A DNA stretch of 64,000 nt from assembly GCA_948467545.1 (NCBI GenBank), contig CAOKER010000004.1, positions 175,952-239,951 of the forward strand. The letters are read 5' to 3'. The translations under genes and the position numbers were made by a program. The notes under the pieces are model-generated. The model saw only the letters and a list, made by a program, of their open reading frames with translations, was not told the origin of the DNA and did not search any database. The number at the start of each line of letters is the position of its first letter. The first letter of the stretch is position 1. Of the stretch, positions 18,695-32,980 are shown piece by piece. The stretch is from an uncultured Eubacteriales bacterium. GTDB taxonomy: Bacteria > Bacillota > Clostridia > Oscillospirales > CAG-272.

Positions 18695-18723
18695 TTGATA
18701 ATTCTCTTAAAATATGTTATAAT
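18695..18723 (+). promoter_or_regulatory. sigma-A type promoter upstream of the mdh-like gene
   Basis: TTGATA, then a 17-nt spacer, then TATAAT. It lies about 350 nt upstream of the start codon at 19073. Confidence 0.6.
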
Positions 18724-19072
18724 GTTCTCTGATATGAATAAGCGCCGTGTATAAAGCGGCTTTGAATCAAAGCACGGAAAAGGTACGGCGGAATTCATAT
18801 CTGCAGAAAATAACAGAGCATCTTTGGCAAAAAAATATATACCTGGGCCGCCTGCTCCATGTAGCTCTCTCCATGCGGCTTTCAATAATGCAGACTGAAA
18901 GCCTTAAACGGCAAAATGACCGCAGGAAACGGCGCTCACATCAAATTTCTATATTTTACAAATATGCACCGTATACTTCTGCAAATACGGCGCAGCCGAA
19001 AATACGGCCGATTTTACAGCATAATGCTTTATTTGAGTCCGGGAGCTTCGGCAGAAAGGAATGGTCGTAAAC

Positions 19073-20020
19073 ATGAACAAAATTACTATCATCGGAACCG
19101 GAAGCGTAGGAGCCACAATCGCATATACACTTGCGGTAAGGGGTATAGCCTCTGAGATCGTAATGGTCGATATCAACCATGAAAAATCGCTTGGAGAAGC
19201 CCTTGACATTAGGCAGGGAATACCTTTCTGCGATACACCGGTATCGATTTACGCCGGAAGCTACCGCGATGCTGTCGGCTCGGACATTGTAATCATCACT
19301 TCTGGAATCGCACGAAAACCGGGTCAGTCGAGAATCGATCTTGCGCAGACAAATGTAAATATAACAAAAAGCATAATACCGGAAATTACAAGATATGCCG
19401 GGGATGCTATGTATATAATTGTAAGCAATCCGGTTGATATTCTGACATATGTATTCTGCAAATGTTCGGGACTTGAGGAAAGACAGATTTTAGGTTCCGG
19501 AACAAGCCTTGACACAGCAAGACTGCGCTCAAGAATTTCGGAATATTACAACATAAATCAGAAAAATGTTCACGCATATGTTTTCGGCGAACACGGAGAC
19601 ACCTCTTTTGTTCCGTGGTCTCTCGCAAATATCTCGAATATTCCGGTTGACATGTATCAGGATGCGCTTGTTCAGAAGGACTGTATGGTTCCCTCCCTCA
19701 GCCACGAAGAGGTTGAGGTTTATATGAGAAAGTCCGGAGGAAGGGTCATCGCGCGCAAGGGAGCGACTTTCTATGCGATTTCAATTTCGGTATGCTATAT
19801 CTGCAAGTGTCTGCTTTCAAGCATAAACACCACAACGACAGTATCTACAATGATGCACGGCGAATACGGGATTGATGATGTTTGTCTCAGCACGCTGAAT
19901 ATCATCGGACACAGCGGAGTAGTAGGGAAGCTTCTCTCTCCTCTTAACGACGAGGAAACTTTGCTTCTCAGAAAGAGTGCAGACTGCCTTAAAGATGTAA
20001 TTAAAAATTTGGATATTTAA
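19073..20020 (+). CDS. mdh: LDH/MDH-family NAD-dependent 2-hydroxyacid dehydrogenase, predicted malate dehydrogenase
   Basis: IIGTGSVGATIAY Rossmann motif. The substrate loop SGIARKPGQSRIDL has Arg (codon 19313-19315) where lactate dehydrogenases carry Gln (..QKPGETRLDL). The family call is firm; malate specificity is inferred. Start at 19073 (MNKITIIG) or 19061. Confidence 0.8.
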   Translation: MNKITIIGTGSVGATIAYTLAVRGIASEIVMVDINHEKSLGEALDIRQGIPFCDTPVSIYAGSYRDAVGSDIVIITSGIARKPGQSRIDLAQTNVNITKSIIPEITRYAGDAMYIIVSNPVDILTYVFCKCSGLEERQILGSGTSLDTARLRSRISEYYNINQKNVHAYVFGEHGDTSFVPWSLANISNIPVDMYQDALVQKDCMVPSLSHEEVEVYMRKSGGRVIARKGATFYAISISVCYICKCLLSSINTTTTVSTMMHGEYGIDDVCLSTLNIIGHSGVVGKLLSPLNDEETLLLRKSADCLKDVIKNLDI

Positions 20021-20070: not shown

Positions 20071-20189
20071 ATAAGAGCAGGGAAGACTGTTTAGACGAAG
20101 TTTGTGCAAAGCTCGTACAAAACTTGCGCTGTACTATTTGTTGTCCGAGAAAATATAGCAGAGAAACGACAGAAAGGAAAACAACTCAT

Positions 20190-21566
20190 ATGGGATATCG
20201 TATCGAACATGATTCTATGGGAGAAGTAAAGGTTCCTGAAGATAGATACTGGGCAGCTCAAACGGAACGAAGCCGCGGAAATTTTAAAATAGGTATCGGA
20301 ACAGAGACGATGCCGAGAGAAATTACTCATGCTTTCGGAATACTGAAAAAAGCTGCTGCAATTGCAAATGCGGCCATAAAGCCTGAGAGAATGACTGAAG
20401 AGAAACTGACTGCAATCAGCGCGGCGTGCGACGAAGTAATTTCCGGAAAGCTCAACGAGCACTTTCCGCTTGTTGTCTGGCAGACAGGATCAGGCACACA
20501 GTCGAACATGAATGCCAATGAAGTAATTGCCAACCGCGGAAATGAAATTGCCGGGAAAAAGCTTCTGCATCCGAACGACGATATAAACATGAGTCAGTCC
20601 TCTAACGATACATTTCCTACAGCTATGCATATTTCCGCTGTCATAGCAATCGAGGATAAGCTTTTTCCGGCTCTCGACATGCTTATAAATACATTTAAAC
20701 GGCTTGAATCCGAAAATGATGACGTTGTAAAAAGCGGACGTACTCATCTTCAGGATGCCACACCGATTAAATTTTCTCAGGAGATCAGCGGATGGCGTAG
20801 TTCTCTTGAACGTGACAGAGAGCTTCTCGAGCTTGCGCTTCCCAAGCTCCATGAGCTTGCGCTCGGAGGTACTGCCGTCGGTACCGGGCTGAATGCCCCG
20901 TCCGGATTTGACAGGAAGGTTGCTAAGGCTGTTTCGGAAATAACAGGAAAACATTTTGTAACAGCGCCGAACAAATTTCACGCGCTTACTTCAAAGGATG
21001 AGCTGGTTTTTGCGCACGGAGCTCTTAAAGCACTTGCCGCAGATCTGATGAAAATCGCAAACGATGTTCGCTGGCTCGCATCGGGCCCGCGCGACGGACT
21101 CGGAGAAATCAGAATTCCCGAAAACGAGCCCGGTTCTTCAATTATGCCCGGAAAGGTAAATCCGACACAGTGCGAGGCGGTAACAATGATTGCCGTGCAG
21201 GTAATGGGAAATGACGTCGCCGTAGGTATGGCTGCTTCCCAGGGAAACTTTGAGCTGAATGTGTTTATGCCGGTGTGTATATATAACTTTCTTCAATCTG
21301 TGAGACTCCTTGCTGAGGTTATTGTTTCATTTAACAATAACTGCGCGGTCGGAATAACCGCAAACCGCGAAAAGATGCATCATAATCTTCATAATTCTCT
21401 CATGCTTGTAACCGCGCTCAATCCGTATATAGGATATGAAAATGCCGCAAAAACAGCAAAAAAAGCTTATAAGGAAAATATCTCTTTAAAGCAGGCTTGC
21501 GTCGAGCTCGGTTTTCTTACCGAAGAAAAATTCGATGAGGTATTTCATCCTGAAAAGATGGTTTGA
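20190..21566 (+). CDS. fumC: class II fumarate hydratase
   Basis: MGYRIEHDSMGEVKVPEDRYWAAQTERS N-terminus and GSSIMPGKVNPTQCEA signature loop. AAAGGAAAA lies upstream of the ATG at 20190; the listed ORF start at 20124 is rejected. Confidence 0.95.
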   Translation: MGYRIEHDSMGEVKVPEDRYWAAQTERSRGNFKIGIGTETMPREITHAFGILKKAAAIANAAIKPERMTEEKLTAISAACDEVISGKLNEHFPLVVWQTGSGTQSNMNANEVIANRGNEIAGKKLLHPNDDINMSQSSNDTFPTAMHISAVIAIEDKLFPALDMLINTFKRLESENDDVVKSGRTHLQDATPIKFSQEISGWRSSLERDRELLELALPKLHELALGGTAVGTGLNAPSGFDRKVAKAVSEITGKHFVTAPNKFHALTSKDELVFAHGALKALAADLMKIANDVRWLASGPRDGLGEIRIPENEPGSSIMPGKVNPTQCEAVTMIAVQVMGNDVAVGMAASQGNFELNVFMPVCIYNFLQSVRLLAEVIVSFNNNCAVGITANREKMHHNLHNSLMLVTALNPYIGYENAAKTAKKAYKENISLKQACVELGFLTEEKFDEVFHPEKMV

Positions 21567-21772: not shown

Positions 21773-22567
21773 ATGGTTTACAGTTATTATCCGGGCTGTA
21801 CTCTGAAAACAAAGGCCAAAGACCTTGACAGATATGCCCGTTTATGTGCGGAAAAGCTTGGCGCTCCGCTTTGTGAGCTTGAGGAATGGCAATGCTGCGG
21901 AGGTGCCTTTACTACTGCGTCGGATGAAGTTGCAACCAAGCTTGCTTCTGTTCGCGCATTAGCGGCGGCTAAAGAAAAAGGAGGCATTCTTGTCACAGTC
22001 TGTTCCGCATGTCATAACGTCCTGAAGCAGACGAACAAGGCAATTCGGGAAAATTCCGAATTTGCATCAAAGGTAACAAACTATATGAAGCCGGAAAATC
22101 CGTATTCCGGAGAAACACGTGTTATTCACTTTCTTGAGCTTCTGAGAGACGAAATAGGCTTTGACAAGCTTGCGGAAGCTGTTACGAATCCTCTTACAGG
22201 AAGAAAGATTGCAGCATATTACGGATGTCTTTTGCTGCGCCCGTCATCCGCACTTGCGATGGACGATCCGGAAAATCCGACAATCATCGAGGATTTTATA
22301 AAGGCCCTCGGCGCCGAGCCGGTTATATATCCCATGCGCAACGAATGCTGCGGCGGATATATAACGCTTGAGGATAAGGCTTCCGCCGAAAAGAAAAGCA
22401 GCGCGGTTGTACGCAGCTGCGAGGAGTTCGGAGCAGATACGGTAATTACGGCATGTCCGCTATGTCTTTACAATCTGAAAAAAAATTCCGGAGCAGATAT
22501 TCCGATAGTGTATTTTACCGAGCTGCTTGCGGAAGCTCTCGGTATTAAGGACGGAGGGAACACATAA
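21773..22567 (+). CDS. hdrB: heterodisulfide reductase subunit B-like protein (two CCG domains)
   Basis: Two copies of the C..CCG..C..C cysteine-rich motif: YYPGC...WQCCGG...CSACHN and YYGC...NECCGG...CPLCLYN. Confidence 0.85.
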   Translation: MVYSYYPGCTLKTKAKDLDRYARLCAEKLGAPLCELEEWQCCGGAFTTASDEVATKLASVRALAAAKEKGGILVTVCSACHNVLKQTNKAIRENSEFASKVTNYMKPENPYSGETRVIHFLELLRDEIGFDKLAEAVTNPLTGRKIAAYYGCLLLRPSSALAMDDPENPTIIEDFIKALGAEPVIYPMRNECCGGYITLEDKASAEKKSSAVVRSCEEFGADTVITACPLCLYNLKKNSGADIPIVYFTELLAEALGIKDGGNT

Positions 22568-22956
22568 TGAAGGATAATAAAAAGCTTAAAGAGCAGATAC
22601 TTCGCTCAAGCGGAGTGAACGTACTTAAATGTATGAGATGCGGTAAATGCTCTGCAACATGTCCTTCGTATGACGAGATGGAGTATCATCCTCATCAATT
22701 CGTAAACATGATTGATAACGGCGAAATTGAACCGCTTCTGAAATCAAAATCTATTTATAAATGTCTTACATGTTTTGCCTGTGTCGAACGGTGTCCGAGA
22801 AATGTAAAGCCGGCATACCTTGTCGAAGCGGTCAGGCTCGCGGTAATTCGTGAAAAGGGAGAAAATCATCTACATCCTGACGATATTCCGGAGCTGCTGG
22901 ACGAGGATCTGCCTCAGCAGGCAATTGTAACAGCGTTTCGCAAATACGCAAAATAA
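22567..22956 (+). CDS. hdrC: heterodisulfide reductase subunit C-like 4Fe-4S dicluster protein
   Basis: CMRCGKCSATCP and CLTCFACVERCP motifs. The ATG overlaps the hdrB stop (TAATG). Confidence 0.85.
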   Translation: MKDNKKLKEQILRSSGVNVLKCMRCGKCSATCPSYDEMEYHPHQFVNMIDNGEIEPLLKSKSIYKCLTCFACVERCPRNVKPAYLVEAVRLAVIREKGENHLHPDDIPELLDEDLPQQAIVTAFRKYAK

Positions 22957-22982: not shown

Positions 22983-24974
22983 ATGCAGAAAATTGGTGTA
23001 TTTGTTTGTCACTGCGGTACAAATATCGCGGCTACGGTAGATGTACAAAAGGTTGCACAAACATTGAAAAACGAACCCGGCGTTGTATTTTCCACCGACT
23101 ATCAGTACATGTGTTCTGAGTCGGGGCAGGACATTATAAAGAATGCCATTGCCGAATATAAACTGACCGGTGTTGTAATATGTTCCTGCTCTCCGCGTAT
23201 GCATGAGGCGACTTTCCGCCGCGCGGCAGAGAAAGCGGGACTTAACCCCTATATGGTTGAGATCGCCAATATACGCGAGCAGTGCTCGTGGATACACAAG
23301 GAGATGCAGACCGCGACCGAAAAGGCTGTAATTCTCGGTCGTGCTGCAATAGCCAAGGTTCATCTCAATGCTCCTCTTACGGCAGGAGAAAGCCCTGTAA
23401 CTAAAAGAGCTCTTGTAATCGGAGGAGGTATTGCCGGAATACAGACCGCTCTCGATATAGCAGATGCGGGCTTTAACGTCGATATTGTTGAAAAGAAGCC
23501 GACAATCGGCGGCAAGATGGCACAGATAGATAAAACGTTCCCGACGCTCGACTGTGCGGCGTGTATTCTTACGCCTAAAATGGTCGATTGTGCGCAGAAT
23601 GACAAGATAAATATATACGCTTACAGCGAGGTTGAGGACATAAGCGGATTTGTCGGTAATTTTTCTGTAAAAATCAGAAAAAAGGCACGCTATGTCGATG
23701 AAACAAAGTGCACGGGCTGCGGACTGTGTACCGAAAAATGTCCTCAGAAAAATGTTCCGAATGAATTCAATCTCGGCTTTGACAATCGTCGCGCAATATA
23801 TATTCCGTTTGCACAGGCAGTACCGAAAAAAGCAACTATTGATCCCGATTACTGTACGATGCTTAAAACGGGAAAATGCGGTGTTTGTTCTAAGCTGTGT
23901 ACAGCCGGAGCAATCGACTACAAGCAAAAGGATCAGATTATAGAGGAAAAATACGGAGCAATTATTGTTGCGACAGGCTTCGAGCCCATAAAGGTCGATA
24001 AATACGACGAATTTGCGTATTCACAGAGCAAGGACGTTGTTACGTCACTGGAGCTTGAACGCCTGATGAATGCGGCAGGTCCGACAAAGGGAACGCTTCT
24101 CCGTCCCTCCGACGGTACGCATCCTCATACAATTGTATTTGTGCAGTGCGTCGGTTCAAGGTGCGAAGATGAAAAAGGAAAGCCATACTGTTCAAAGGTA
24201 TGCTGCATGTATACCGCAAAGCATGCAATGCTGATAAGGGAGAAATATCCCGATACTGAGGTATATGTATTTTATATTGACGTACGTACTCCCGGAAAGA
24301 ACTTTGATGAGTTTTACCGCCGTGCGGTCGAGCAATACGGCGTTCACTATATAAAGGGAATGGTCGGAAAGGTAATGCCGCGTGCAGACGGAAAGCTTGA
24401 GGTACGCGCATCCGATTTGCTTCTCGGCAAACAACTTCATATCGATGCCGATATGGTTGTTTTGGCAGTCGCAATCGAGCCTGACAAAACGGCAAGACCT
24501 CTCGCTACCATGCTTACCGCAAGCATGGACACTAATGATTTCTTTACCGAAGCTCATCCAAAGCTTCGTCCGGTGGAAAGTCCTACAGCCGGGATATTCC
24601 TTTCAGGTATGTGCCAAGGGCCGAAGGATATTCCCGAAACTGTTGCGCAGGCAAGCGCTGCTGCGGCAAAGGCGATCGGACTGCTTTGCAAAGATAAGCT
24701 TACCTGTAATCCTTGTGTGGCGCACTCCGATGAAATGATGTGCAACGGATGCTCATTGTGCGCAAATGTCTGCCCTTACGGTGCTATAACATATGTGGAT
24801 AAAGAATTCCGTATGCCGAACAGAACCACCGCGATACGCAGAGTATCATCCGTCAATCCCGCTGTTTGCCAGGGCTGCGGAGCATGTACAGTTGCATGTC
24901 CTTCCGGAGCAATGGATTTGTCGGGATTCTCAAACAGACAGATTATGTCGGAGGTTGACGCGATATGCAAGTGA
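22983..24974 (+). CDS. hdrA: heterodisulfide reductase subunit A-like FAD/poly-FeS flavoprotein
   Basis: N-terminal VFVCHCGTNIA, dinucleotide fold ALVIGGGIAGIQTALDIADAG, internal CTGCGLCTEKCP, and C-terminal CNGCSLCANVCP / CQGCGACTVACP ferredoxin domain. The 663-aa length is typical of HdrA. Confidence 0.9.
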   Translation: MQKIGVFVCHCGTNIAATVDVQKVAQTLKNEPGVVFSTDYQYMCSESGQDIIKNAIAEYKLTGVVICSCSPRMHEATFRRAAEKAGLNPYMVEIANIREQCSWIHKEMQTATEKAVILGRAAIAKVHLNAPLTAGESPVTKRALVIGGGIAGIQTALDIADAGFNVDIVEKKPTIGGKMAQIDKTFPTLDCAACILTPKMVDCAQNDKINIYAYSEVEDISGFVGNFSVKIRKKARYVDETKCTGCGLCTEKCPQKNVPNEFNLGFDNRRAIYIPFAQAVPKKATIDPDYCTMLKTGKCGVCSKLCTAGAIDYKQKDQIIEEKYGAIIVATGFEPIKVDKYDEFAYSQSKDVVTSLELERLMNAAGPTKGTLLRPSDGTHPHTIVFVQCVGSRCEDEKGKPYCSKVCCMYTAKHAMLIREKYPDTEVYVFYIDVRTPGKNFDEFYRRAVEQYGVHYIKGMVGKVMPRADGKLEVRASDLLLGKQLHIDADMVVLAVAIEPDKTARPLATMLTASMDTNDFFTEAHPKLRPVESPTAGIFLSGMCQGPKDIPETVAQASAAAAKAIGLLCKDKLTCNPCVAHSDEMMCNGCSLCANVCPYGAITYVDKEFRMPNRTTAIRRVSSVNPAVCQGCGACTVACPSGAMDLSGFSNRQIMSEVDAICK

Positions 24975-25429
24975 ATAATACGACTGAAAATATAACCGAA
25001 AATACAAGCTTTAAGCCCTTGATAGTTGCATTTTGCTGTAACTGGTGCTCATATGCAGGCGCGGACCTCGCCGGAACAAACCGTCTTACCTATCCGGCGG
25101 ACGTTAAAATAATCCGTGTTCCGTGTTCCTGCCGCGTAAATCCCATGTTTATTCTCAGAGCATTTCAGAGAGGAGCTGACGGCGTAATTCTCTGCGGATG
25201 TCATCCCGGAGACTGCCATTATACTACAGGAAATTACTATGCAAGACGAAGAATGACGCTTCTGTTTTCAATGCTTGACTATTTCGGCATAGAAAAGGAA
25301 AGAACACGCGTTGAGTGGGTATCGGCTGCCGAAGGCGCGAAATTCGCTGCGACGATGAACGATTTTGCGGAAACCGTAACCCGTCTCGGCAGAAATAAGA
25401 GACTGGAGGATCTGAGATGCAGGAAGTAA
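24965..25429 (+). CDS. mvhD: MvhD/FlxD-like (methyl-viologen-reducing hydrogenase delta subunit family) protein
   Basis: IVAFCCNWCSYAGADLAG...IRVPCSCRVNP...GADGVILCGCHPGDCHY is the MvhD/FlpD signature. It overlaps the hdrA 3' end by 10 nt. Confidence 0.9.
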   Translation: MQVNNTTENITENTSFKPLIVAFCCNWCSYAGADLAGTNRLTYPADVKIIRVPCSCRVNPMFILRAFQRGADGVILCGCHPGDCHYTTGNYYARRRMTLLFSMLDYFGIEKERTRVEWVSAAEGAKFAATMNDFAETVTRLGRNKRLEDLRCRK

Positions 25430-26388
25430 TGATAAAAAAAGCCGCAGAGCTTCTTGAAAACGGAACCGTAAACCGCGTAATGGGATGGAAAGCGGGCGAG
25501 TTTATCTACGATGTAACCCCTGCTGTTTTTGAGACCGCGGAAGAGCTGAAAGACTTTGTATACGGAGATTTCTGCGCTCCGAATCTTTCCAAATACATGG
25601 TAGCCGAGTCTAAAAAGGACGGCAAGATACTTGTTTTTCTCAAGCCGTGCGACACATACAGTTTTAACGAACTTCTATGTGAGCACCGTATAAATCGCGA
25701 CGGTGTATACGTAGTCGGAATACCGTGCGACGGTAAAACAGATATAGAAAAAATAAAGGCTCTTGCGGGACCGGGAATTATAGATATAAAGCGTGAGGGC
25801 GATAATCTCAAGGTTCAAACCGCATATGGATCAAGCGAGCTTTCACGAGATGACGTAAAGCTCGACAGATGTCTTGTCTGTAAGAGTCATAAGCACGTGG
25901 CATACGACGAGCTTATAGGAGAAGACGGAGAAATCCGTGAATCCAAACGGTTCGACGAGGTTGAAAGGCTTGAACATATGACGCCTGAGGAAAGATTTTC
26001 CTTCTGGCGCGGCGAGCTTTCAAAATGTATAAGATGCAACGCATGCCGTAATGTATGTCCGGCGTGTACCTGCGAAAAATGTGTTTTTGACAATCCTGCT
26101 TCCGGTGTTGAAAACAAAGCCGCATCGACAAGCTTCGAGGAGAATATGTTCCATATAATCCGAGCTTTCCATGTTGCGGGACGGTGTACCGACTGCGGCG
26201 AATGTTCCCGCGTATGTCCTCAGCATATACCGCTGCATTTGCTTAACCGTAAATTCATCAAGGATATAAACGAGCTGTACGGCGAGTATCAAGCAGGCGC
26301 AGATCCCGAAAGTCGCTCCCCGGTTGTTGACTTTACTAAAAACGATGCGGAACCGGGAATCATATACGAAAGGGGAGGTAACGAATGA
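25417..26388 (+). CDS. FlxC-type 4Fe-4S dicluster protein
   Basis: CIRCNACRNVCPACTC and CTDCGECSRVCP motifs. GGAGGA lies 6 nt upstream, and the gene overlaps the mvhD 3' end. Its position between the mvhD-like and FlxB-like genes mirrors flxD-C-B-A. Confidence 0.7.
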   Translation: MQEVMIKKAAELLENGTVNRVMGWKAGEFIYDVTPAVFETAEELKDFVYGDFCAPNLSKYMVAESKKDGKILVFLKPCDTYSFNELLCEHRINRDGVYVVGIPCDGKTDIEKIKALAGPGIIDIKREGDNLKVQTAYGSSELSRDDVKLDRCLVCKSHKHVAYDELIGEDGEIRESKRFDEVERLEHMTPEERFSFWRGELSKCIRCNACRNVCPACTCEKCVFDNPASGVENKAASTSFEENMFHIIRAFHVAGRCTDCGECSRVCPQHIPLHLLNRKFIKDINELYGEYQAGADPESRSPVVDFTKNDAEPGIIYERGGNE

Positions 26389-27425
26389 CGTATAAGCTTT
26401 TTCTTGACAAACTCTATGACTTTTTCGATAAAATTGCAGGGAAAGAGATTCTGTATATTCCGTCGGATGATTCTGACGGTTCGGCTCGTTTTAAAAAATA
26501 TGAGACCGGCGTTACTCTTTCCGAGTCCGGCAACACAGTTCGTTCTGCCAAGGATTTTTTCTTTCCTCAAACAGAAAGTCTTGTGGACTTTAAGGTAGAC
26601 GGACAAAAGATAGAGGTAATCGATCCGCGAACCGAAACCGAGGATTTCGTAATATTCGGCGTAAGATCATGCGATGCGCGAAGCTTTAAAATTCTTGATA
26701 AGGTGTTTATCGATCAGGAGCCTGCCGATTCTTACTATCTTAACAGGCGCAGTCACGGAACAGTGATTACACTTGCCTGTACTGCACCGGTGGAAACATG
26801 CTTCTGTAAAACCTTCGGTATTGATCCTACTGAATCTGCCGACGGAGACATTACCGCATGGAAAACTTCAAACGCTCTGATGCTGAAGGCTGTGAGCGAA
26901 AAGGGAAGAGCTTTGCTCGAATCACTCGGAGAGATAATCGATAAGGCGGACAGTGAAGATGAAAAAGCAGTCGAAGCTCAGAAAAAGCAGACAAATGTTA
27001 TTTATGACAAGCTTCCGCTTCATAATTTAAGTACAGAAAAATTTGACGGCAGAAGCATGATGGATACTTTTTTTTCCGAAAAGTGGAAAGAGCTTTCTGA
27101 GGCTTGCCTCGGATGCGGAACATGCACTTTTGTCTGCCCGACATGCCAGTGCTATGATATAAAGGAATTTGATACCGGTCACGGAATTAAGCGTTTCAGA
27201 TGTTGGGATTCCTGCATGTATTCCGATTTTACAAAAATGGCGGGAGGACAGCCGAGGCTTACACAGCTCGAACGTTTCCGTCAGCGTTTTATGCATAAGC
27301 TTATTTACTTTCCGATGAATAACGACGGTGAATACGGATGTGTCGGATGCGGAAGATGCCTTGCAAAATGTCCGATTCATATGAATATAGTAAAGGTTAT
27401 GAAATCAATAGGGGAGGACGAATAA
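26385..27425 (+). CDS. FlxB-type iron-sulfur protein (AsrA / sulfhydrogenase beta-like)
   Basis: LGCGTCTFVCPTCQCYDI and CVGCGRCLAKCP motifs. ATGA overlap with the upstream gene. Confidence 0.7.
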   Translation: MTYKLFLDKLYDFFDKIAGKEILYIPSDDSDGSARFKKYETGVTLSESGNTVRSAKDFFFPQTESLVDFKVDGQKIEVIDPRTETEDFVIFGVRSCDARSFKILDKVFIDQEPADSYYLNRRSHGTVITLACTAPVETCFCKTFGIDPTESADGDITAWKTSNALMLKAVSEKGRALLESLGEIIDKADSEDEKAVEAQKKQTNVIYDKLPLHNLSTEKFDGRSMMDTFFSEKWKELSEACLGCGTCTFVCPTCQCYDIKEFDTGHGIKRFRCWDSCMYSDFTKMAGGQPRLTQLERFRQRFMHKLIYFPMNNDGEYGCVGCGRCLAKCPIHMNIVKVMKSIGEDE

Positions 27426-28252
27426 TGACAGAAGAAATGCTCATTCCCAAAATCGGCGTTGTCACAGACATCAGACAGGACACTCCGGATGTTAAAACCT
27501 TTCGGGTACTTACCCCTGATGGGACAAAGCCTTTTGATCACATGCCGGGACAATGTGCAATGGTGTCAATTCCCGGCGTAGGTGAAGCTATGTTTTCAAT
27601 AACCTCATCTCCGACAAATACCGAATTTATGGAGTTCAGCATAAAGAAATGCGGATGTCTCACGGAATGGCTGCATATGATTGAGCCGGGACAGCAGATT
27701 ACCGTGCGCGGACCGTACGGCAACGCATTTCCGGTAGAAAGTGATCTTCTCGGAAAAGATCTTGTATTTATAGCGGGAGGAATCGGTCTTGCTCCGCTTC
27801 GCTCAGTAATCAATTACGTACGTGATAACAGAAGCAGGTACGGCTCGGTTCAGATTATTTACGGTTCGAGATCCAAGGACGACCTTGTTGATTATCAGGA
27901 AATAATCGACGAATGGATGACAGCTCCCGATTTTGAGGTAGATCTTACAATTGACCGTGAACAATCCGGATGGGACGGTCACGTCGGCTTTGTACCGAAT
28001 TATGTAAAAGAACTGTCTCCGGACGTTTCAAAAACGGTTCTTATGTGCGGCCCTCCGATTATGATAAAGTTTTCGCTCGCTGCGCTAAAGGAGCTTGGAT
28101 TTAAAGATACTCAGATATATACGACAATGGAGCTCCGCATGAAATGCGGAATCGGCAAGTGCGGACGCTGCAACATCGGAAATAAGTACGTATGTAAGGA
28201 CGGACCGGTATTCCGCTTTGACGAGCTCGGTGAGCTTCCGGATGAGTATTAA
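27425..28252 (+). CDS. FlxA-type FAD/NAD(P)H-binding oxidoreductase with C-terminal 2Fe-2S (AsrB/HydG/PyrK-like)
   Basis: FNR-like fold (FIAGGIGLAPLRSV) and C-terminal MKCGIGKCGRCNIGNKYVCKDGPVF cluster motif. TAATG overlap with the upstream gene and GGGGAGG RBS. The listed start at 27338 is rejected. Confidence 0.8.
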   Translation: MTEEMLIPKIGVVTDIRQDTPDVKTFRVLTPDGTKPFDHMPGQCAMVSIPGVGEAMFSITSSPTNTEFMEFSIKKCGCLTEWLHMIEPGQQITVRGPYGNAFPVESDLLGKDLVFIAGGIGLAPLRSVINYVRDNRSRYGSVQIIYGSRSKDDLVDYQEIIDEWMTAPDFEVDLTIDREQSGWDGHVGFVPNYVKELSPDVSKTVLMCGPPIMIKFSLAALKELGFKDTQIYTTMELRMKCGIGKCGRCNIGNKYVCKDGPVFRFDELGELPDEY

Positions 28253-28330
28253 TTAATACCGAAGAAATCAAAACCGATTTATTTGGTTTAGAATCCGTGA
28301 GAAAGGAATAAACCCTGCCGGGCGCAGGGG

Positions 28331-29017
28331 ATGGAAATCAATATGGAAAATATGGTTAATATCTATTTGTTCGGTAAGAAATATTCGGTACCGGCAAGTC
28401 TCACAATTATGACCGCAATGGAATATGCCGGATACCAGCTTAAACGCGGATGCGGATGCCGCAACGGTTTTTGCGGTGCATGCGCTACAATCTACAGAAT
28501 TAAGGGCAAACAGGAGCTTCAGGTATGTCTTGCATGTCAGACTCAGGTTGAGGAAGGTATGTATATTGCGACGCTTCCTTTCTTCCCGCTTGTCAAACAG
28601 ATTTATGATATTGAGAAAATTAAACCCACAGAGCAGATAATGATGCAGCTTTATCCGGAGATATATGCCTGCATAGGATGTAATGCCTGCACCAAAAGCT
28701 GTACACAGGGACTCAATGTTATGCAGTATATTGCTTATGCGCAGCGCGGAGAATATGAAAAGTGTGCAGAAGAATCCTTTGACTGTGTAATGTGTGGAGT
28801 ATGCTCGTCCCGCTGTCCTGCCGGAATCTCGCATCCGCAGGTTGCGATGCTTGCGCGCAGGCTAAACGGAAAATATCTTGCTCCGAAATGCGGACATCTT
28901 GAAAACCGTGTAAAGGAAATCAAGGACGGTAGCTTCGAGGAGCTCCTGCAAAATCTGATGCAAAAGCCAATCGAAGAGATGAAAGAGCTTTATAATAACA
29001 GAGAAATAGAGAAATAA
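28331..29017 (+). CDS. SdhB/FrdB-like iron-sulfur subunit (2Fe-2S plus 4Fe-4S motifs), no CCG domain
   Basis: GCGCRNGFCGACAT (2Fe-2S-like), CIGCNACTKSC and CVMCGVCSSRCP. Start is ambiguous among ATGs at 28331, 28343 and 28352. Confidence 0.75.
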   Translation: MEINMENMVNIYLFGKKYSVPASLTIMTAMEYAGYQLKRGCGCRNGFCGACATIYRIKGKQELQVCLACQTQVEEGMYIATLPFFPLVKQIYDIEKIKPTEQIMMQLYPEIYACIGCNACTKSCTQGLNVMQYIAYAQRGEYEKCAEESFDCVMCGVCSSRCPAGISHPQVAMLARRLNGKYLAPKCGHLENRVKEIKDGSFEELLQNLMQKPIEEMKELYNNREIEK

Positions 29018-29032
29018 GGGAGGGTAGAATCA

Positions 29033-30634
29033 ATGTACAACGAAGAGATGCTTGAATCAATTAAAAAAGTTGAAGCTAACCGAGCTGCCAATACCGCGCT
29101 TGAACCGAGAAGAATGACAGCCGATGAAAAGGACGCTCTCCTTTCAGAATATCATCCTGACTATAAAAAAGGCGAATTTGCAGAACTCAAAATCGGACCG
29201 AACAAGGGAGAAAAGGTTCCAAAGGAGCTTGCTGAGCTTCTTCAGGCAAACAGTCGTCTTAAGGATCATAAGCCGAATTTGGAGAATCCTGATTATGATG
29301 TTGACGTGCTTATAATCGGAGGAGGAGGAGCAGGTGCTTCCGCCGCAATTGAAGCAGACAATGCCGGTGCAAAGGTCATGGTCGTTACCAAGCTGCGAAT
29401 CGGAGATGCCAACACAATGATGGCAGAGGGTGGAATTCAAGCTGCCGATAAGGAAAACGATTCTCCTGCTCAGCATTATCTTGACGCTTTCGGCGGCGGT
29501 CACTTTGCAGCTAAGCCGGAACTGCTCCGTAAGCTTGTAAGTGAAGCTCCCGAAGCGATTGAATGGCTAAGCAATCTCGGCGTCGAATTCGATAAAATGC
29601 CCGACGGAACCATGATTACAACCCATGGCGGAGGAACTTCCAGAAAAAGAATGCATGCCGCGAAGGATTATTCAGGCGCTGAAATCATGAGAACACTTCG
29701 CGACGAAGTGCTTAACCGACAGATTCCTGTTGTTGATTTTACGGCGGCAGTCGAACTTATTCTCGATGAAACCGGACGGGCGTCCGGTGCAGTACTTCTG
29801 AATATGGAGACCGATGAACTCCTCGTTGCCAAAGCCAAAACAGTAATTATTGCTACGGGAGGCGCGGGAAGACTTCATTACCAGGGATTTCCTACTTCAA
29901 ATCACTATGGTGCGACTGCGGACGGACTTGTACTGTCTTACAGAGTCGGAGCAAAGCTTCTTTATGCGGATACACTTCAATATCATCCCACAGGCGCCGC
30001 TTACCCGGAACAGATTTTTGGAGCCCTTGTCACCGAAAAAGTGCGTTCGCTCGGCGCAAAGCTAATTAACTCCGACGGAGAAGTATTTATGCACCCGCTC
30101 GAAACACGCGATGTTTCGGCTGCATCCATTATTCGTGAATGCAGTGCAAGAGATAAGGGAATACACACCGCCTCAGGTGTGGGAGTCTGGCTCGATACTC
30201 CGATGATTGAGCTGAAAAACGGAGAAGGAACTATCGAAAGCAGAATTCCGGCGATGCTCCGTATGTTCGGAAAATACGGCATTGATATTAGACGCGAACC
30301 TATTCTTGTATATCCGACGCTGCATTATCAGAACGGTGGTATAGACATCTCAGACAACGGTGAATCCGGAGTTCAGAATCTTTTCGTTGCCGGAGAAGCA
30401 GTCGGAGGGATTCATGGCAGAAACCGTCTTATGGGTAACTCACTCCTTGATATTATAGTCTTCGGACGCAATGCGGGAAAACAGGCGGCAGCTCGTTCTA
30501 AGGATACGAAAACCGGAAAACTTACACTTGAGCATATTGACCGCTTTTCGGCAGAGATGACAGCTGCTAATATCAAGACAGATGTCGTTTCTCCCAAATT
30601 GCTTCCTAATTATGCCCGTAAAAGTTCTAAATGA
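29033..30634 (+). CDS. fumarate reductase/succinate dehydrogenase/L-aspartate oxidase family flavoprotein (FrdA-like) with ~88-aa N-terminal extension
   Basis: DVLIIGGGGAGASAA FAD fold, QYHPTG, HYQNGGI and RLMGNSLLD family blocks. GGGAGGG RBS lies 8 nt upstream. Confidence 0.85.
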   Translation: MYNEEMLESIKKVEANRAANTALEPRRMTADEKDALLSEYHPDYKKGEFAELKIGPNKGEKVPKELAELLQANSRLKDHKPNLENPDYDVDVLIIGGGGAGASAAIEADNAGAKVMVVTKLRIGDANTMMAEGGIQAADKENDSPAQHYLDAFGGGHFAAKPELLRKLVSEAPEAIEWLSNLGVEFDKMPDGTMITTHGGGTSRKRMHAAKDYSGAEIMRTLRDEVLNRQIPVVDFTAAVELILDETGRASGAVLLNMETDELLVAKAKTVIIATGGAGRLHYQGFPTSNHYGATADGLVLSYRVGAKLLYADTLQYHPTGAAYPEQIFGALVTEKVRSLGAKLINSDGEVFMHPLETRDVSAASIIRECSARDKGIHTASGVGVWLDTPMIELKNGEGTIESRIPAMLRMFGKYGIDIRREPILVYPTLHYQNGGIDISDNGESGVQNLFVAGEAVGGIHGRNRLMGNSLLDIIVFGRNAGKQAAARSKDTKTGKLTLEHIDRFSAEMTAANIKTDVVSPKLLPNYARKSSK

Positions 30635-30648: not shown

Positions 30649-31884
30649 ATGTCTTTGTTCGGAGGAGTAATTCCTGTCACCGGAATTACATTTCTAATTT
30701 TCAGTGTATTTGCCATTTCTGCAATCGGATATGCTTTGGGACGCATAACAATAAAAGGTGTCTCTCTCGGTACAGCTGGCGTCTTTATTATAGCTCTTGT
30801 CTATGGATGCTTGTTCTACAAGCAGCTTGATGCACAGCTGGTTGATTATACAAAAAATGCGTTAAAGATTATAGAGAATATGGGACTGATTCTTTTTGTA
30901 ACATCTGTCGGATTTATAGCGGGACCGAAATTTTTCAGCAATATGAAGAAAAATTTCAAATCCTATGTTTGTCTCGGCCTTATAATCATAATTGCAGGAG
31001 GTCTCGCCGCAATCGGATGCATAATGTTCGGAAGAACAGTAGGAGGAGAAACGGATTTTGACAGACTTACGGCCATGATAGTAGGGCTTTTATCGGGTTC
31101 TCTCACCTCAACGCCGGCATTTTCGGCGGCAAAAGCTACCGTTGCGCCGGCATATGAGGACATAGTATCTGTCGGACACGGCATTGCGTATATCTTCGGA
31201 GTGATCGGAGTAGTGCTTTTTGTGCAGCTTATTCCTAAGCTTACTAAAGCAAATATGGAAGAAGAGCGCAGAAAGCTTATAATTGCGGACGACGGTTCGA
31301 GCAAAAAGAAAAAAGGCGCAAAAAAACTGATAGATATGGATCCATTCGGAATAATGGTTTTTGCATTGGCGGCTATTATAGGTATTTTTGTCGGAATGAT
31401 AAAAATTCCGCTTTCCTCAAATGGTCTTTCCGGAACTGCATTTTCGCTTACAACAACAGGTGGATGTCTTCTGATTTCTCTTTTATTCGGTCATTTTGGA
31501 AAATGCGGAAGAATAAACCTCATGCCTGAAGAATCTACTTTGAAAGTATTTAGAGAACTTGGACTTATGCTGTTCCTAATTGGTGCAGGAGTTGCCGGAG
31601 GCGCAAGCTTTATCGAAAACTTCCAGCCAATATACTTTATTTACGGCGTAGTAATGACGCTTGTTCCGATGATTATTGGCTATATATTTGCTAAATACGT
31701 TCTCAGGCTCAGTCTGCTTAATAATCTCGGCTCCATAACCGGAGGAATGACAAGTACTCCTGCGCTCGGTACACTTATCAGTGTTGCCGGTACAGAAAAT
31801 GTTGCGGCCGCATATGCAGCAACATATCCTGTAGCTTTAATATCGGTTGTGCTTTTGTCACAATTTTTGATATTGTTATTCTGA
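30649..31884 (+). CDS. AAE (aspartate:alanine exchanger / YidE-YbjL / SucE-like) family transporter, short form without TrkA-C domains
   Basis: Two homologous polytopic halves are joined by a short charged linker (EEERRKLIIADDGSSKKKKGAKK). N-terminal ...AIGYALGRITIKGVSLGTAGVF is typical of the family. Confidence 0.7.
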   Translation: MSLFGGVIPVTGITFLIFSVFAISAIGYALGRITIKGVSLGTAGVFIIALVYGCLFYKQLDAQLVDYTKNALKIIENMGLILFVTSVGFIAGPKFFSNMKKNFKSYVCLGLIIIIAGGLAAIGCIMFGRTVGGETDFDRLTAMIVGLLSGSLTSTPAFSAAKATVAPAYEDIVSVGHGIAYIFGVIGVVLFVQLIPKLTKANMEEERRKLIIADDGSSKKKKGAKKLIDMDPFGIMVFALAAIIGIFVGMIKIPLSSNGLSGTAFSLTTTGGCLLISLLFGHFGKCGRINLMPEESTLKVFRELGLMLFLIGAGVAGGASFIENFQPIYFIYGVVMTLVPMIIGYIFAKYVLRLSLLNNLGSITGGMTSTPALGTLISVAGTENVAAAYAATYPVALISVVLLSQFLILLF

Positions 31885-31895
31885 TAAAATAACTT

Positions 31896-31920
31896 CCTGT
31901 CTCATTTTATATGAGACAGG
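31896..31920 (+). terminator. hairpin after the transporter gene (weak terminator candidate)
   Basis: Perfect 10-bp stem cctgtctcat/atgagacagg with a 5-nt loop, but no clear downstream T-run on +. Confidence 0.4.
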
Positions 31921-32088
31921 AATATAATAGTGTATGACGGGAAGATAAATTACCTACCGTCTTACTTTAGTAAAAGGTATCGGCTTGTTTCATATCGATA
32001 TCGTCGTAAGAATATTACCGCCGGGCTTTTGCCCCTATTAAAACAATGCCGGGTTTCCGGGGGAAAGAAGGGAAATTATTACCGCATT

Positions 32089-32334: not shown

Positions 32335-32371
32335 TCTCCAAAAAGAAAGAATAACAAGGGGAATTATTTTT

Positions 32372-32944: not shown

Positions 32945-32980
32945 AAACACAGTCATATATTTTTATACGGCTGTGTTTTT
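32943..32980. terminator. bidirectional terminator between convergent genes
   Basis: Stem aaaaacacag/ctgtgttttt has an A-run and a T-run built into its arms. It lies between the 32944 (+) stop and the 33030 (-) stop. Confidence 0.6.

What the first reader, a model, noticed from the sequence alone, without database searches (positions are those of the whole stretch)
28331..30634. FrdB/FrdA-like pair looks like a 'split' thiol:fumarate reductase: short FeS subunit without CCG domain, flavoprotein with an ~88-aa N-terminal extension, no membrane anchor
The FeS subunit is 228 aa with 2Fe-2S-like GCGCRNGFCGAC plus two Cys clusters, and it ends without the HdrB-like CCG extension found in methanogen TfrB. 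The only CCG protein nearby is HdrB, 6 kb upstream in the same transcription direction. The flavoprotein's FAD fold (DVLIIGGGGAG) starts only at residue ~91. The preceding Lys/Glu-rich segment has no counterpart in classical FrdA/SdhA/NadB and could be a docking element. The next gene is a transporter, not frdC/D.
Basis: partly seen in the sequence, partly recalled or inferred. Interest (0 to 1): 0.65.

Follow-up and report, generated by a model that had tools for sequence, protein, structure and literature searches.

The report
Hdr-linked soluble fumarate reductase operon
These two genes encode a small, membrane-free fumarate reductase that sits in a conserved "succinate operon" with an NADH-dehydrogenase/heterodisulfide-reductase complex; this layout was already proposed (but never proven) to couple succinate formation to ferredoxin reduction in anaerobic Clostridia.

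Summary
A short FrdB-like Fe-S protein (no CCG domain) and a 533-aa FrdA-like flavoprotein with a genuine, conserved ~88-aa N-terminal extension lie at 28331-30634. There is no membrane anchor.

They are the last enzymes of one same-strand gene cluster, probably an operon: LDH/MDH-family dehydrogenase, fumC, hdrBCA, flxDCBA, frdBA, AspT/YidE-family transporter. This order is the same in all 80 related Clostridia loci examined, wherever the contig is long enough.

The flavoprotein keeps every fumarate-reducing catalytic residue. It lacks the covalent-FAD histidine and the whole C-terminal SdhA/FrdA domain.

The same layout is published as the "succinate operon" of Pseudoclostridium thermosuccinogenes, proposed in 2019 to be an electron-bifurcating fumarate reductase. 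So the kind is known as a hypothesis, with no biochemical proof found.

New here:
- Archaeal relatives (Asgard, Bathyarchaeia) place hdrC-hdrB directly upstream of frdBA, with other input modules (Mvh hydrogenase, FrhB-like).
- Relatives carrying the extension also exist without any Hdr (NuoF-like partner, or none), and one is a natural FrdB-FrdA fusion.

The extension therefore more likely serves the FrdA-FrdB pair than docking to HdrB. "Split thiol:fumarate reductase" fits the architecture. Thiol chemistry itself is unproven, and I think it less likely than direct electron transfer.

The parts
18695..18723 (+). Promoter-like site (TTGATA-17-TATAAT with an upstream TG) ahead of the cluster
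   Evidence: Consensus scan, 11 of 12 matches. It follows a strong terminator-like hairpin at 18529-18565 that closes the fucose isomerase gene. Consensus match only; function not shown.
19061..20020 (+). LDH/MDH-family NAD-dependent dehydrogenase, probably malate dehydrogenase
   Evidence: Pfam Ldh_1_N and Ldh_1_C. NCBIfam scores it as L-LDH just at threshold. The sequence has Arg at the LDH Gln102 specificity position (GIARKPGQSR), which from memory is typical of malate dehydrogenases. Present upstream of fumC in 42 of 80 related loci.
20187..21566 (+). Class II fumarate hydratase (fumC)
   Evidence: TIGR00979, 716 bits against a cut-off of 664.75. Pfam Lyase_1 plus FumaraseC_C.
21773..22567 (+). 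HdrB-like protein with two CCG domains
   Evidence: Pfam CCG x2. TIGR03288 HdrB 150 bits and MFR SdhE 143 bits, both below their cut-offs. All ten CCG-motif cysteines are conserved in 64 orthologues.
22567..22956 (+). HdrC-like protein with two [4Fe-4S] clusters
   Evidence: Fer4_8 and Fer4_17; TIGR03290 63 bits. Its eight cysteines are invariant.
22983..24974 (+). HdrA (flavin and Fe-S; the putative bifurcating subunit)
   Evidence: NF040770 HdrA2, 818 bits over residues 3-662.
24965..25429 (+). MvhD/FlxD [2Fe-2S] connector
   Evidence: Pfam FlpD, E = 1e-55.
25417..26388 (+). FlxC-like Fe-S protein
   Evidence: Fer4_8 and Fer4_9 dicluster domain at residues 200-271.
26385..27425 (+). FlxB-like Fe-S protein (sulfhydrogenase beta / AsrA-like)
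   Evidence: Fer4_22; ShyB, HydB and AsrA models at 141-173 bits.
27425..28252 (+). FlxA-like NAD(P)H-binding flavoprotein with a [2Fe-2S] cluster
   Evidence: FAD_binding_6, NAD_binding_1 and DHODB_Fe-S_bind. Sulfhydrogenase gamma / AsrB-like. The start ATG at 27425 overlaps the flxB stop (TAATG), and an AGGGGAGG Shine-Dalgarno sequence lies upstream.
28313..28329 (.). GC-rich hairpin (CCCTGCCGGGCGCAGGG) between flxA and frdB
   Evidence: Inverted repeat seen. Role unknown.
28331..29017 (+). FrdB-like Fe-S subunit: one [2Fe-2S] and two [4Fe-4S] clusters, no CCG domain; likely true start at 28343
   Evidence: 2Fe-2S ligands are C43, C48, C51 and C69. The dicluster motifs are at 114-124 and 152-162. 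The second motif has four Cys, so a [4Fe-4S] rather than the [3Fe-4S] of classical SdhB. The C-terminal tail (LY..REIEK) is conserved in the Clostridia and archaeal orthologues.
29033..29296 (+). N-terminal extension of the flavoprotein (residues 1-88)
   Evidence: Shine-Dalgarno sequence GGGAGGG upstream. Invariant residues R17, L37, H41, P42, D43, G55, N57, E65 and L83 in 77 sequences. 37% identical to the archaeal clade, against 60% for the core. Predicted as helix-helix-hairpin-helix with pLDDT 76-95. No Pfam match.
29033..30634 (+). FrdA-like flavoprotein: FAD and capping domains only, non-covalent FAD, no C-terminal SdhA domain
   Evidence: FAD_binding_2 at 91-471. Residues equivalent to E. 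coli FrdA: H318 (H232), T334/E335 (T244/E245), R359 (R287), H431 (H355), R465 (R390), all invariant. N127 replaces the covalent-FAD His44. Foldseek best hit is E. coli QFR FrdA, E = 3.5e-29.
30649..31884 (+). AspT/YidE/YbjL (aspartate:alanine exchanger family) transporter, probably the succinate exporter
   Evidence: Pfam Asp-Al_Ex x2; TIGR01625. The family includes a succinate exporter (PMC9527358 abstract). Follows frdA in 52 of 80 loci.
31894..31922 (.). 12-bp hairpin just after the transporter gene; possible 3' end of the operon
   Evidence: The T-run lies on the minus-strand side only, so termination of the + strand transcript is uncertain.

Best explanation
frdB and frdA encode the terminal, fumarate-reducing module of a soluble multi-enzyme system encoded by one same-strand gene cluster. 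Co-transcription is inferred, not shown.

Proposed pathway:
- Oxaloacetate is reduced to malate by the LDH/MDH-family enzyme.
- Malate is dehydrated to fumarate by FumC.
- NADH is oxidised by FlxA.
- Electrons pass through FlxB, FlxC and FlxD to the flavin of HdrA.
- There the electron pair is split. One electron goes to ferredoxin. The other goes through the HdrC and HdrB iron-sulfur clusters to FrdB (two [4Fe-4S], one [2Fe-2S]) and on to the non-covalently bound FAD of FrdA.
- FrdA reduces fumarate to succinate.
- Succinate leaves through the adjacent exchanger-family transporter.

The net reaction would be about 2 NADH + oxidised ferredoxin + fumarate -> 2 NAD+ + reduced ferredoxin + succinate.

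Shown here:
- gene content and its conservation;
- the cofactor-binding and catalytic residues;
- the absence of a membrane anchor, a CCG domain and the C-terminal SdhA domain.

Inferred:
- that the proteins form one complex;
- that ferredoxin is reduced (bifurcation);
- that electrons pass from Hdr to FrdB directly rather than through a thiol/disulfide carrier.

The N-terminal extension most likely stabilises or forms the FrdA-FrdB interface in a flavoprotein that has lost the usual C-terminal domain.
For: 1. Gene set. All seven Flx-Hdr components, fumC, an LDH/MDH-family enzyme and a dicarboxylate-type transporter flank frdBA on one strand, with overlapping or closely spaced genes.

2. Synteny. 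In 80 related genomes (73-83% identity; gut and rumen Clostridia) the order (mdh)-fumC-hdrB-hdrC-hdrA-flxD-flxC-flxB-flxA-frdB-frdA-(transporter) is unchanged wherever the contig is long enough.

3. Catalysis. The fumarate-reductase residues are invariant, and Asn replaces the covalent-FAD His. Covalent FAD is needed for succinate oxidation, not for fumarate reduction (established knowledge).

4. Structure. The model is confident (pLDDT 82.5, pTM 0.86) and best matches E. coli FrdA.

5. Independent archaeal contexts link frdBA to Hdr through other input modules:
- hdrA-mvhDGA-hycI-hdrC-hdrB-frdB-frdA in an Asgard genome;
- hdrC-hdrB-hdrA-(~1000-aa Fe-S flavoprotein)-mvhD-frhB-like-frdB-frdA;
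- hdrC-hdrB-frdB-frdA-hdrA/mvhD;
- CCG-frdB-frdA next to hdrA/mvhD.
A Bathyarchaeota locus has malic enzyme-fumarase alpha/beta-frdB-frdA, which supports fumarate as the substrate.

6. Direct electron input. FrdBA also pairs with a NuoF-like NADH module in marine Gammaproteobacteria. So FrdB can take electrons directly from a protein partner.

7. Subunit pairing. A natural FrdB-FrdA fusion exists (P0243).

8. Literature. The same gene order is described as the "succinate operon" of P. thermosuccinogenes. It is proposed to couple fumarate reduction to ferredoxin reduction and is about 4-fold up-regulated at low CO2 (PMC7282089).

9. Thermodynamics. Fumarate/succinate is +33 mV and NAD+/NADH is -320 mV, comparable to the crotonyl-CoA system (PMC5861303).
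Against: - No biochemical or structural proof of such a complex was found in the searchable literature.
- HdrB keeps all ten cysteines of both non-cubane cluster sites. That is what a true disulfide reductase would need, so a thiol carrier is not excluded.
- Complex formation could not be modelled. Only single chains could be predicted, and the FrdB model failed.
- FrdBA relatives exist without Hdr, so Hdr coupling is not intrinsic to the pair.
- Orthology to the P. thermosuccinogenes genes rests on matching gene count, order and annotation, not on a sequence comparison.
- Ferredoxin reduction is inferred only from the presence of HdrA.
Confidence: 0.6

Rival explanations
1. True split thiol:fumarate reductase. 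Flx-HdrABC reduces an unknown disulfide (a small thiol pair or a carrier protein) with NADH. HdrB together with FrdBA re-oxidises the thiols to reduce fumarate, as Mvh-Hdr and TfrAB do in methanogens through CoM-SH and CoB-SH.
For: - The best curated matches are TfrA and the TfrB N-domain.
- HdrB keeps every cysteine of both CCG sites in 64 orthologues.
- hdrB lies directly upstream of frdB in several archaeal loci, which mimics a split TfrB.
Against: - No candidate thiol carrier gene (for example a DsrC-like one) was seen in the cluster.
- From general knowledge, Clostridia do not make CoM or CoB.
- FrdB has no CCG domain, and the cluster encodes only one hdrB, which would have to serve both half-reactions.
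- FrdBA works with a NuoF-like partner and no CCG protein in the same cluster elsewhere, which shows direct protein-to-protein electron input.
Confidence: 0.2
2. Plain, non-bifurcating soluble NADH:fumarate oxidoreductase. The Flx-Hdr proteins act only as a wire from NADH to FrdBA, and no ferredoxin is reduced.
For: - The gammaproteobacterial FrdBA-NuoF-like cluster suggests that a simple NADH-dependent version exists.
- No ferredoxin gene lies inside the cluster.
Against: - Seven conserved genes, including a full HdrA (818 bits to HdrA2), would be an extravagant wire. In characterised systems HdrA is the bifurcating subunit (PMC5861303; PMC5296606 abstract).
- In P. thermosuccinogenes, H2 addition to the headspace almost abolished succinate production, which is read as fitting ferredoxin coupling (PMC7282089).
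Confidence: 0.12
3. The flavoprotein is not a fumarate reductase. It would be an L-aspartate oxidase-like or other enoate or amino-acid oxidoreductase of the FAD_binding_2 superfamily.
For: - Some databases name close homologues L-aspartate oxidase or just FAD-dependent oxidoreductase.
- NadB models score 271 bits.
- The C-terminal SdhA domain is missing.
- The fumC product also matches an aspartate ammonia-lyase subfamily model just above its cut-off.
Against: - The NadB score is well below its cut-off (271 against 452.75) and below the TfrA score of 341.
- The protein has a dedicated 2Fe-2S / 2x[4Fe-4S] partner and even a natural fusion with it.
- fumC passes the fumarase equivalog cut-off.
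- Fumarase also accompanies the pair in Bathyarchaeota.
- The best structural match is E. coli FrdA.
Confidence: 0.05

Closest known systems
"Succinate operon" of Pseudoclostridium (Hungateiclostridium) thermosuccinogenes, CDQ83_RS03365-03315 (Koendjbiharie & van Kranenburg, 2019 preprint, as cited in PMC7282089)
   Same: The described content and order are the same: fumarate hydratase, seven Flx-Hdr genes, two fumarate reductase genes, one putative succinate transporter. The proposed function is also the same: fumarate reduction coupled to ferredoxin reduction through Flx-Hdr.
   Different: The window adds an LDH/MDH-family gene upstream. The organism is a mesophilic gut-type Clostridia lineage. 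Sequence-level orthology could not be tested because the sequence and the preprint were not available here. The published proposal is itself untested biochemically.
Thiol:fumarate reductase TfrAB of Methanothermobacter (EC 1.3.4.1)
   Same: It is soluble and has no membrane anchor. Its Fe-S subunit has a [2Fe-2S] and two [4Fe-4S] clusters. It is the best curated HMM match for both subunits. A CCG protein takes part in the same system.
   Different: In TfrB the CCG domains are fused to the Fe-S domain; here they are on a separate HdrB. The flavoprotein lacks the TfrA C-terminal third (the match covers model positions 6-419 of 546) and has an extra N-terminal 88 residues. Both subunits score far below the family cut-offs. 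From general knowledge, Clostridia do not make CoM or CoB.
FlxABCD-HdrABC of Desulfovibrio vulgaris (Ramos et al. 2015, as cited in PMC7282089)
   Same: [quoted passage not shown]
   Different: In Desulfovibrio the proposed acceptor is a disulfide (DsrC, from memory). Here a fumarate reductase pair and fumarase are encoded in the same cluster.
MvhAGD-HdrABC of methanogens
   Same: It has the same HdrABC core with an MvhD connector. An Asgard relative of this locus has mvhDGA-hdrCB-frdBA.
   Different: The acceptor is CoM-S-S-CoB and the donor is H2. No FrdBA is attached.
E. coli quinol:fumarate reductase FrdABCD (PDB 1KF6 and others)
   Same: It is the best structural match for the flavoprotein (E about 1e-29, TM-score about 0.65 normalised to the query, 30% identity). 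The catalytic His and Arg residues are identical.
   Different: E. coli has membrane anchors FrdC and FrdD, covalent FAD (His44), a [3Fe-4S] centre, a C-terminal helical domain and no N-terminal extension.
Type E succinate:quinone reductase / methylmenaquinol:fumarate reductase (SdhABEF, MfrABE)
   Same: A CCG-domain protein (SdhE/MfrE) partners SdhAB. The window HdrB scores 143 bits on the MfrE model. From memory, centre 3 of type E SdhB is also a [4Fe-4S].
   Different: The score is far below the cut-off of 500. HdrB here comes with HdrC, HdrA and Flx. There is no SdhF and no quinone link. MfrA (212 bits against 1100) does not fit.
L-aspartate oxidase NadB
   Same: It is soluble, has non-covalent FAD and belongs to the same superfamily, with shared catalytic residues.
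   Different: NadB has no Fe-S partner, keeps a C-terminal helical domain and lacks the extension. The window protein scores below the NadB cut-off.

Membership tests
Thiol:fumarate reductase TfrAB | Flavoprotein passes the TfrA equivalog model (NF004900, cut-off 718 bits) over its full length | tested here: not met
   341 bits, covering model positions 6-419 of 546; the C-terminal part is absent.
Thiol:fumarate reductase TfrAB | Fe-S subunit fused to an HdrB-like C-terminal half with two CCG domains (NF004898, cut-off 385) | tested here: not met
   35.7 bits, N-domain only (model positions 18-148 of 488). No CCG domain by Pfam. No orthologue recovered from the 80 related loci is longer than 241 aa.
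Thiol:fumarate reductase TfrAB | Uses thiols (CoM-SH plus CoB-SH) as electron donors | not testable with these tools
   Needs an enzyme assay.
Flx-Hdr-linked soluble fumarate reductase ("succinate operon" type) | fumarase, then hdrABC and flxABCD (seven genes), then two frd genes, then a putative succinate transporter, in one same-strand cluster | tested here: met
   Identical order in 80 related loci. Matches the description in PMC7282089.
Flx-Hdr-linked soluble fumarate reductase ("succinate operon" type) | Sequence orthology to the P. thermosuccinogenes CDQ83_RS03320/25 proteins | not tested
   The reference sequence was not retrievable.
Flx-Hdr-linked soluble fumarate reductase ("succinate operon" type) | NADH- and fumarate-dependent ferredoxin reduction | not testable with these tools
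   No published assay was found.
FlxABCD-HdrABC complex | Presence of FlxA (NAD/FAD/2Fe-2S), FlxB and FlxC (Fe-S), FlxD (MvhD), HdrA, HdrB (two complete CCG motifs) and HdrC (two [4Fe-4S]) | tested here: met
   Domain hits. Cysteine conservation.
Classical membrane-bound QFR/SQR (types A-D) | Membrane anchor subunit(s) adjacent; covalent FAD histidine; [3Fe-4S] motif in the Fe-S subunit; C-terminal Succ_DH_flav_C domain | tested here: not met
   No anchor gene. Asn127 in place of the His. The second dicluster motif has four Cys. No Succ_DH_flav_C hit. All SdhA/FrdA and SdhB models score below their cut-offs.
Type E SQR / MFR (SdhABEF, MfrABE) | SdhE/MfrE-type CCG anchor and MfrA/SdhA passing the NF042965 and NF042982 cut-offs | tested here: not met
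   HdrB 142.7 bits against a cut-off of 500; flavoprotein 211.5 against 1100.
L-aspartate oxidase NadB | Passes TIGR00551 (cut-off 452.75); stand-alone flavoprotein with a C-terminal helical domain | tested here: not met
   271 bits. It has a dedicated Fe-S partner, and a fusion with that partner exists. No C-terminal domain.

The most novel reading that the evidence does not exclude
FrdBA is the physiological high-potential acceptor module of HdrABC in non-methanogens. It would be wired directly to the HdrB/HdrC clusters with no thiol/disulfide intermediate. Such a "thiol-free" HdrABC-type bifurcating fumarate reductase would have interchangeable input modules: Flx/NADH in gut and rumen Clostridia, Mvh/H2 and FrhB-like modules in Asgard and other archaea. 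The minimal FrdBA core, with its N-terminal extension replacing the lost C-terminal domain, would be a portable unit that also plugs into NuoF-like NADH modules in marine bacteria.
Probability: 0.4. Interest if true: 0.75.

Novelty: new member of a known kind. Interest (0 to 1): 0.5.

Why it matters
- **Fumarate reduction without quinones.** If the proposed mechanism holds, it explains how Clostridia that have no membrane-bound fumarate reductase next to these genes (MAGs labelled Ruminococcus flavefaciens, Christensenella, Yeguia and many uncultured Oscillospirales carry the cluster) make succinate. It also explains how they could gain extra reduced ferredoxin, usable for H2 or Rnf-driven ATP, from that step.
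- **An acceptor for HdrABC.** It would give a concrete physiological electron acceptor for bacterial and archaeal HdrABC homologues. In the non-methanogen systems I know of, that acceptor is proposed rather than proven.
- **A choice of test organisms.** The comparative data gathered here offer several natural variants for a biochemical test: Asgard and Bathyarchaeia versions with Mvh or FrhB-like inputs, versions without Hdr, and a natural FrdB-FrdA fusion.
- **Annotation.** Homologues of the flavoprotein are named inconsistently (fumarate reductase flavoprotein, L-aspartate oxidase, or just FAD-dependent oxidoreductase). This can make pathway calls for succinate formation unreliable.

Tried and rejected
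- **FrdB structure, single sequence.** AlphaFold2 gave pLDDT 37 and pTM 0.25, which is unusable, so it was not fold-searched.
- **FrdB structure, with an alignment.** The contacts of the N-terminal extension therefore could not be read.
- **Public sequencing runs.** Only one wastewater DNA run held 9% of the words and there was no RNA run. Transcript boundaries could not be checked.
- **Pfam on the accessory segments.** The extension, the FrdA C-terminal tail and the FrdB tail gave nothing usable.
- **PDB profile search with the FrdB alignment.** Only generic dicluster matches came back, with RnfC best at E = 1e-8, plus one spurious designed-repeat hit. No solved close relative exists.
- **Literature searches for a biochemical characterisation.** Terms for bifurcating or ferredoxin-dependent fumarate reductase, Hdr-Frd, and thermosuccinogenes found only the proposal. 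The 2019 preprint itself is not held.
- **PDB 9LAY.** This weak FrdB match was checked and is an ordinary Chloroflexus menaquinone-reducing SQR, so it is not relevant.
- **NadB reading.** Considered and rejected; see the rival explanations.
- **Extension as an annotation artefact.** Considered and rejected because of the Shine-Dalgarno sequence, its conservation and its predicted order.
- **Extension as an Hdr-specific dock.** Considered and downgraded because it also occurs in relatives without Hdr.


Full report
**What is at the coordinates.** On the + strand, 28331-29017 encodes a 228-aa protein and 29033-30634 a 533-aa protein. The first has 2Fe-2S ferredoxin-type and 4Fe-4S dicluster Pfam domains and no CCG domain. 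Its cysteines fall into three groups:
- C43-x4-C48-x2-C51...C69;
- CxxCxxCxxxC at 114-124;
- CxxCxxCxxxCP at 152-162.

These twelve cysteines are invariant in the 79 FrdB sequences aligned from the window and the related loci. C41, C66 and C145 are replaced in archaeal relatives. The second dicluster motif has four cysteines, so the protein should carry one [2Fe-2S] and two [4Fe-4S] clusters, not the [3Fe-4S] of classical SdhB/FrdB. Most orthologues are 224 aa and begin MENMVN. The true start is therefore probably the ATG at 28343.

**The flavoprotein.** It has a single FAD_binding_2 domain at residues 91-471 and no Succ_DH_flav_C domain. Alignment to E. coli FrdA and to a family alignment gives these equivalents, all invariant:
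- H318 = FrdA His232;
- T334/E335 = Thr244/Glu245;
- R359 (RDV motif) = Arg287, the proton donor;
- H431 = His355;
- R465 = Arg390.

The histidine that carries covalent FAD (His44) is Asn127 here. An AlphaFold2 model built on 77 sequences is confident (pLDDT 82.5, pTM 0.86). Its best PDB matches are E. coli quinol:fumarate reductase FrdA and Mycobacterium Sdh1 SdhA, over about 450 aligned columns.

**The N-terminal extension is real.**
- A GGGAGGG Shine-Dalgarno sequence lies 7 nt upstream of the ATG at 29033.
- A search with the 88 residues alone recovers hundreds of homologous N-termini at 60-97% identity. Those carrying a Pfam hit show FAD-binding domains of the FAD_binding_2 type, apart from one probably spurious hit.
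- The extension aligns in representatives down to about 40% identity, with conserved HPDY, G-x-N-x-G-E and P-x-E-L motifs.
- It is 37% identical between the window protein and an archaeal clade, against 60% for the core.
- It is predicted as ordered helices plus a hairpin with pLDDT 76-95.
- It matches no Pfam family.
- A short C-terminal tail with a conserved LPNY motif is also family-specific.

**Surroundings.** The pair closes a same-strand cluster:

| Gene | Coordinates | Note |
|---|---|---|
| LDH/MDH-family dehydrogenase | 19061-20020 | Arg at the LDH Gln102 position, so probably malate dehydrogenase (a memory-based criterion) |
| fumC | 20187-21566 | Passes the class II fumarase cut-off |
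| hdrB | 21773-22567 | Two CCG domains |
| hdrC | 22567-22956 | |
| hdrA | 22983-24974 | |
| mvhD/flxD | 24965-25429 | |
| flxC | 25417-26388 | |
| flxB | 26385-27425 | |
| flxA | 27425-28252 | |
| frdB | 28331-29017 | |
| frdA | 29033-30634 | |
| AspT/YidE/YbjL transporter | 30649-31884 | |

Many of these genes overlap or are a few bases apart. A promoter-like site (18695-18723) precedes the cluster and a hairpin (31894-31922) follows it. No frdC/D-like anchor gene is present. The transporter family includes a known succinate exporter (PMC9527358).

**Conservation.** In the best 80 loci (73-83% identity) the order (mdh)-fumC-hdrB-hdrC-hdrA-flxD-flxC-flxB-flxA-frdB-frdA-(transporter) is unchanged wherever the contig reaches. 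These loci are gut and rumen Clostridia, including Christensenella tenuis, Yeguia hominis and MAGs labelled Ruminococcus flavefaciens. All ten CCG-motif cysteines of HdrB and the eight of HdrC are conserved.

**Relatives outside Clostridia.** A clade 53-57% identical, with the extension, is archaeal: Bathyarchaeia, Asgard and others. Its contexts are informative.

| Locus (call) | Lineage | Gene order around frdBA |
|---|---|---|
| L082 (31, 33) | Asgard | hdrA-mvhD-mvhG-mvhA-hycI-hdrC-hdrB-frdB-frdA |
| L084, L085 (60, 61) | Asgard MAG; MAG labelled "Halobacteria archaeon" | hdrC-hdrB-hdrA-(~1000-aa Fe-S flavoprotein)-mvhD-frhB-like-frdB-frdA |
| L086 (62) | archaeal-clade relative (record not named) | hdrC-hdrB-frdB-frdA-hdrA/mvhD fusion |
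| L083 (59) | archaeal-clade relative (record not named) | CCG-frdB-frdA beside an hdrA/mvhD fusion |
| L081 (30) | Bathyarchaeota | malic enzyme-fumarase alpha-fumarase beta-frdB-frdA, with a lone CCG gene 7 kb away |

More distant relatives that still carry the extension come from marine Gammaproteobacteria and from Prochlorococcus sp. MIT 1201. There frdBA sits with a NuoF-like NADH-binding subunit or alone, with no Hdr. The FrdB cluster cysteines are still invariant. One representative (P0243, 727 aa) is a natural FrdB-FrdA fusion in which FrdB is followed directly by the extension. In the window, frdB and frdA are in the same frame, separated by TAA and five codons.

**Interpretation.** FrdBA is a minimal soluble fumarate reductase core. 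It has catalytic residues for fumarate, non-covalent FAD and three Fe-S clusters. It has no anchor, no CCG domain and no C-terminal SdhA domain. It recurs with interchangeable electron-input modules.

In this window, the input is the complete FlxABCD-HdrABC set. The most likely mechanism is therefore NADH oxidation by Flx, bifurcation at HdrA, a low-potential electron to ferredoxin, and a high-potential electron through HdrC/HdrB to FrdB, FAD and fumarate. The large potential gap makes this energetically plausible by analogy with the crotonyl-CoA system (fumarate/succinate +33 mV, NADH -320 mV; PMC5861303).

What is shown is gene content, conservation, cofactor ligands and catalytic residues. 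Three things are inferred: complex formation, ferredoxin reduction, and a direct rather than thiol-mediated link.

I favour a direct link for three reasons:
- the cluster holds no carrier gene;
- FrdB has no thiol-oxidising domain;
- the same FrdBA core accepts a NuoF-like partner elsewhere.

The perfectly conserved CCG sites of HdrB keep the thiol-shuttle rival alive.

Because the extension also occurs without Hdr, and because it follows FrdB in the fusion, it more likely supports the FrdA-FrdB pair than docks to HdrB. It may compensate for the missing C-terminal domain.

**Comparison with what is known.** The same cluster is described as the "succinate operon" of Pseudoclostridium thermosuccinogenes: fumarate hydratase, seven Flx-Hdr genes, two fumarate reductase genes and a putative succinate transporter. 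Coupling of fumarate reduction to ferredoxin reduction is proposed there, citing a 2019 preprint. Expression rises about 4-fold at low CO2 (PMC7282089). I found no biochemical or structural validation.

The locus is not a member of several related families, because it fails their cut-offs and defining features:
- TfrAB (341 against 718 bits and 36 against 385 bits; no fused CCG);
- classical QFR/SQR;
- type E SQR/MFR;
- NadB.

It works most like a TfrAB whose CCG half is the HdrB of an attached bifurcating Hdr complex.

**Verdict.** This is a new member of an already proposed but unverified kind. The added value here is the cross-domain comparative picture and the anatomy of the minimal FrdBA core.

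Noticed in passing
window 29015-29035: frdB and frdA are in the same reading frame, separated only by TAA plus five codons. A public protein (P0243, 727 aa) is a natural FrdB-FrdA fusion in which FrdB runs straight into the N-terminal extension.
   Followed up: partly
window 28313-28329: A GC-rich hairpin (CCCTGCCGGGCGCAGGG) lies in the 90-nt gap between flxA and frdB, right against the first ATG of the frdB ORF. It could be an mRNA processing or stability element, or a translational element. Its conservation was not checked.
   Followed up: no
window 19061-20020: NCBIfam calls this LDH-family gene L-lactate dehydrogenase, exactly at threshold (339 against 339). It carries Arg at the LDH Gln102 specificity position (GIARKPGQSR), which suggests malate/oxaloacetate specificity. 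It is a likely mis-annotation trap.
   Followed up: partly
L082 4141-4143: The Asgard hdrA next to mvhDGA-hdrCB-frdBA has a single in-frame stop codon, after which the HdrA sequence continues in the same frame. This could be recoding, a sequencing error or a pseudogene. The position is not an obvious cysteine/selenocysteine site.
   Followed up: partly
L084 3612-8243 and L085 3820-8287: In two archaeal loci, a ~1000-aa protein (ferredoxin domains plus two Pyr_redox_2 domains), MvhD and an FrhB/FdhB-like protein lie between hdrA and frdB. This may be a third kind of electron-input module for Hdr-FrdBA.
   Followed up: no
L088 7366-10891; L087 8001-10357: FrdBA relatives that carry the extension occur in marine Gammaproteobacteria, next to a NuoF-like (Complex1_51K) subunit. 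They also occur in Prochlorococcus sp. MIT 1201, in the order frdA-frdB with no obvious partner. Their function in these non-fermenting organisms is unknown.
   Followed up: partly
P0277, P0287, P0309: A subfamily of about 400-415 aa has the same core (36-42% identity to the window protein) but lacks both the N-terminal extension and the C-terminal tail. Its partners and contexts were not examined.
   Followed up: no
L006, L058, L070: Contigs carrying the Clostridia-type cluster at 73-83% identity are filed under MAGs labelled Treponema, Bacteroides uniformis and Bacteroidaceae. These are probably binning or labelling errors rather than horizontal transfer.
   Followed up: no
window 33911-34741 (- strand): Two adjacent ORFs (122 aa and 133 aa, 60 nt apart) may be the two halves of one Peptidase_C39_2-like protein, which would make it a frameshifted or split gene. 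The first ORF matches profile positions 2-80 of 143. The second has no Pfam hit, and I read it by eye as the C-terminal half.
   Followed up: no
window 32001-34000: G+C drops to 0.33 just downstream of the cluster, against about 0.45 inside it. The stretch holds a thioredoxin-like [2Fe-2S] ferredoxin ORF (32083-32334) and an unassigned 190-aa ORF (32372-32944).
   Followed up: no
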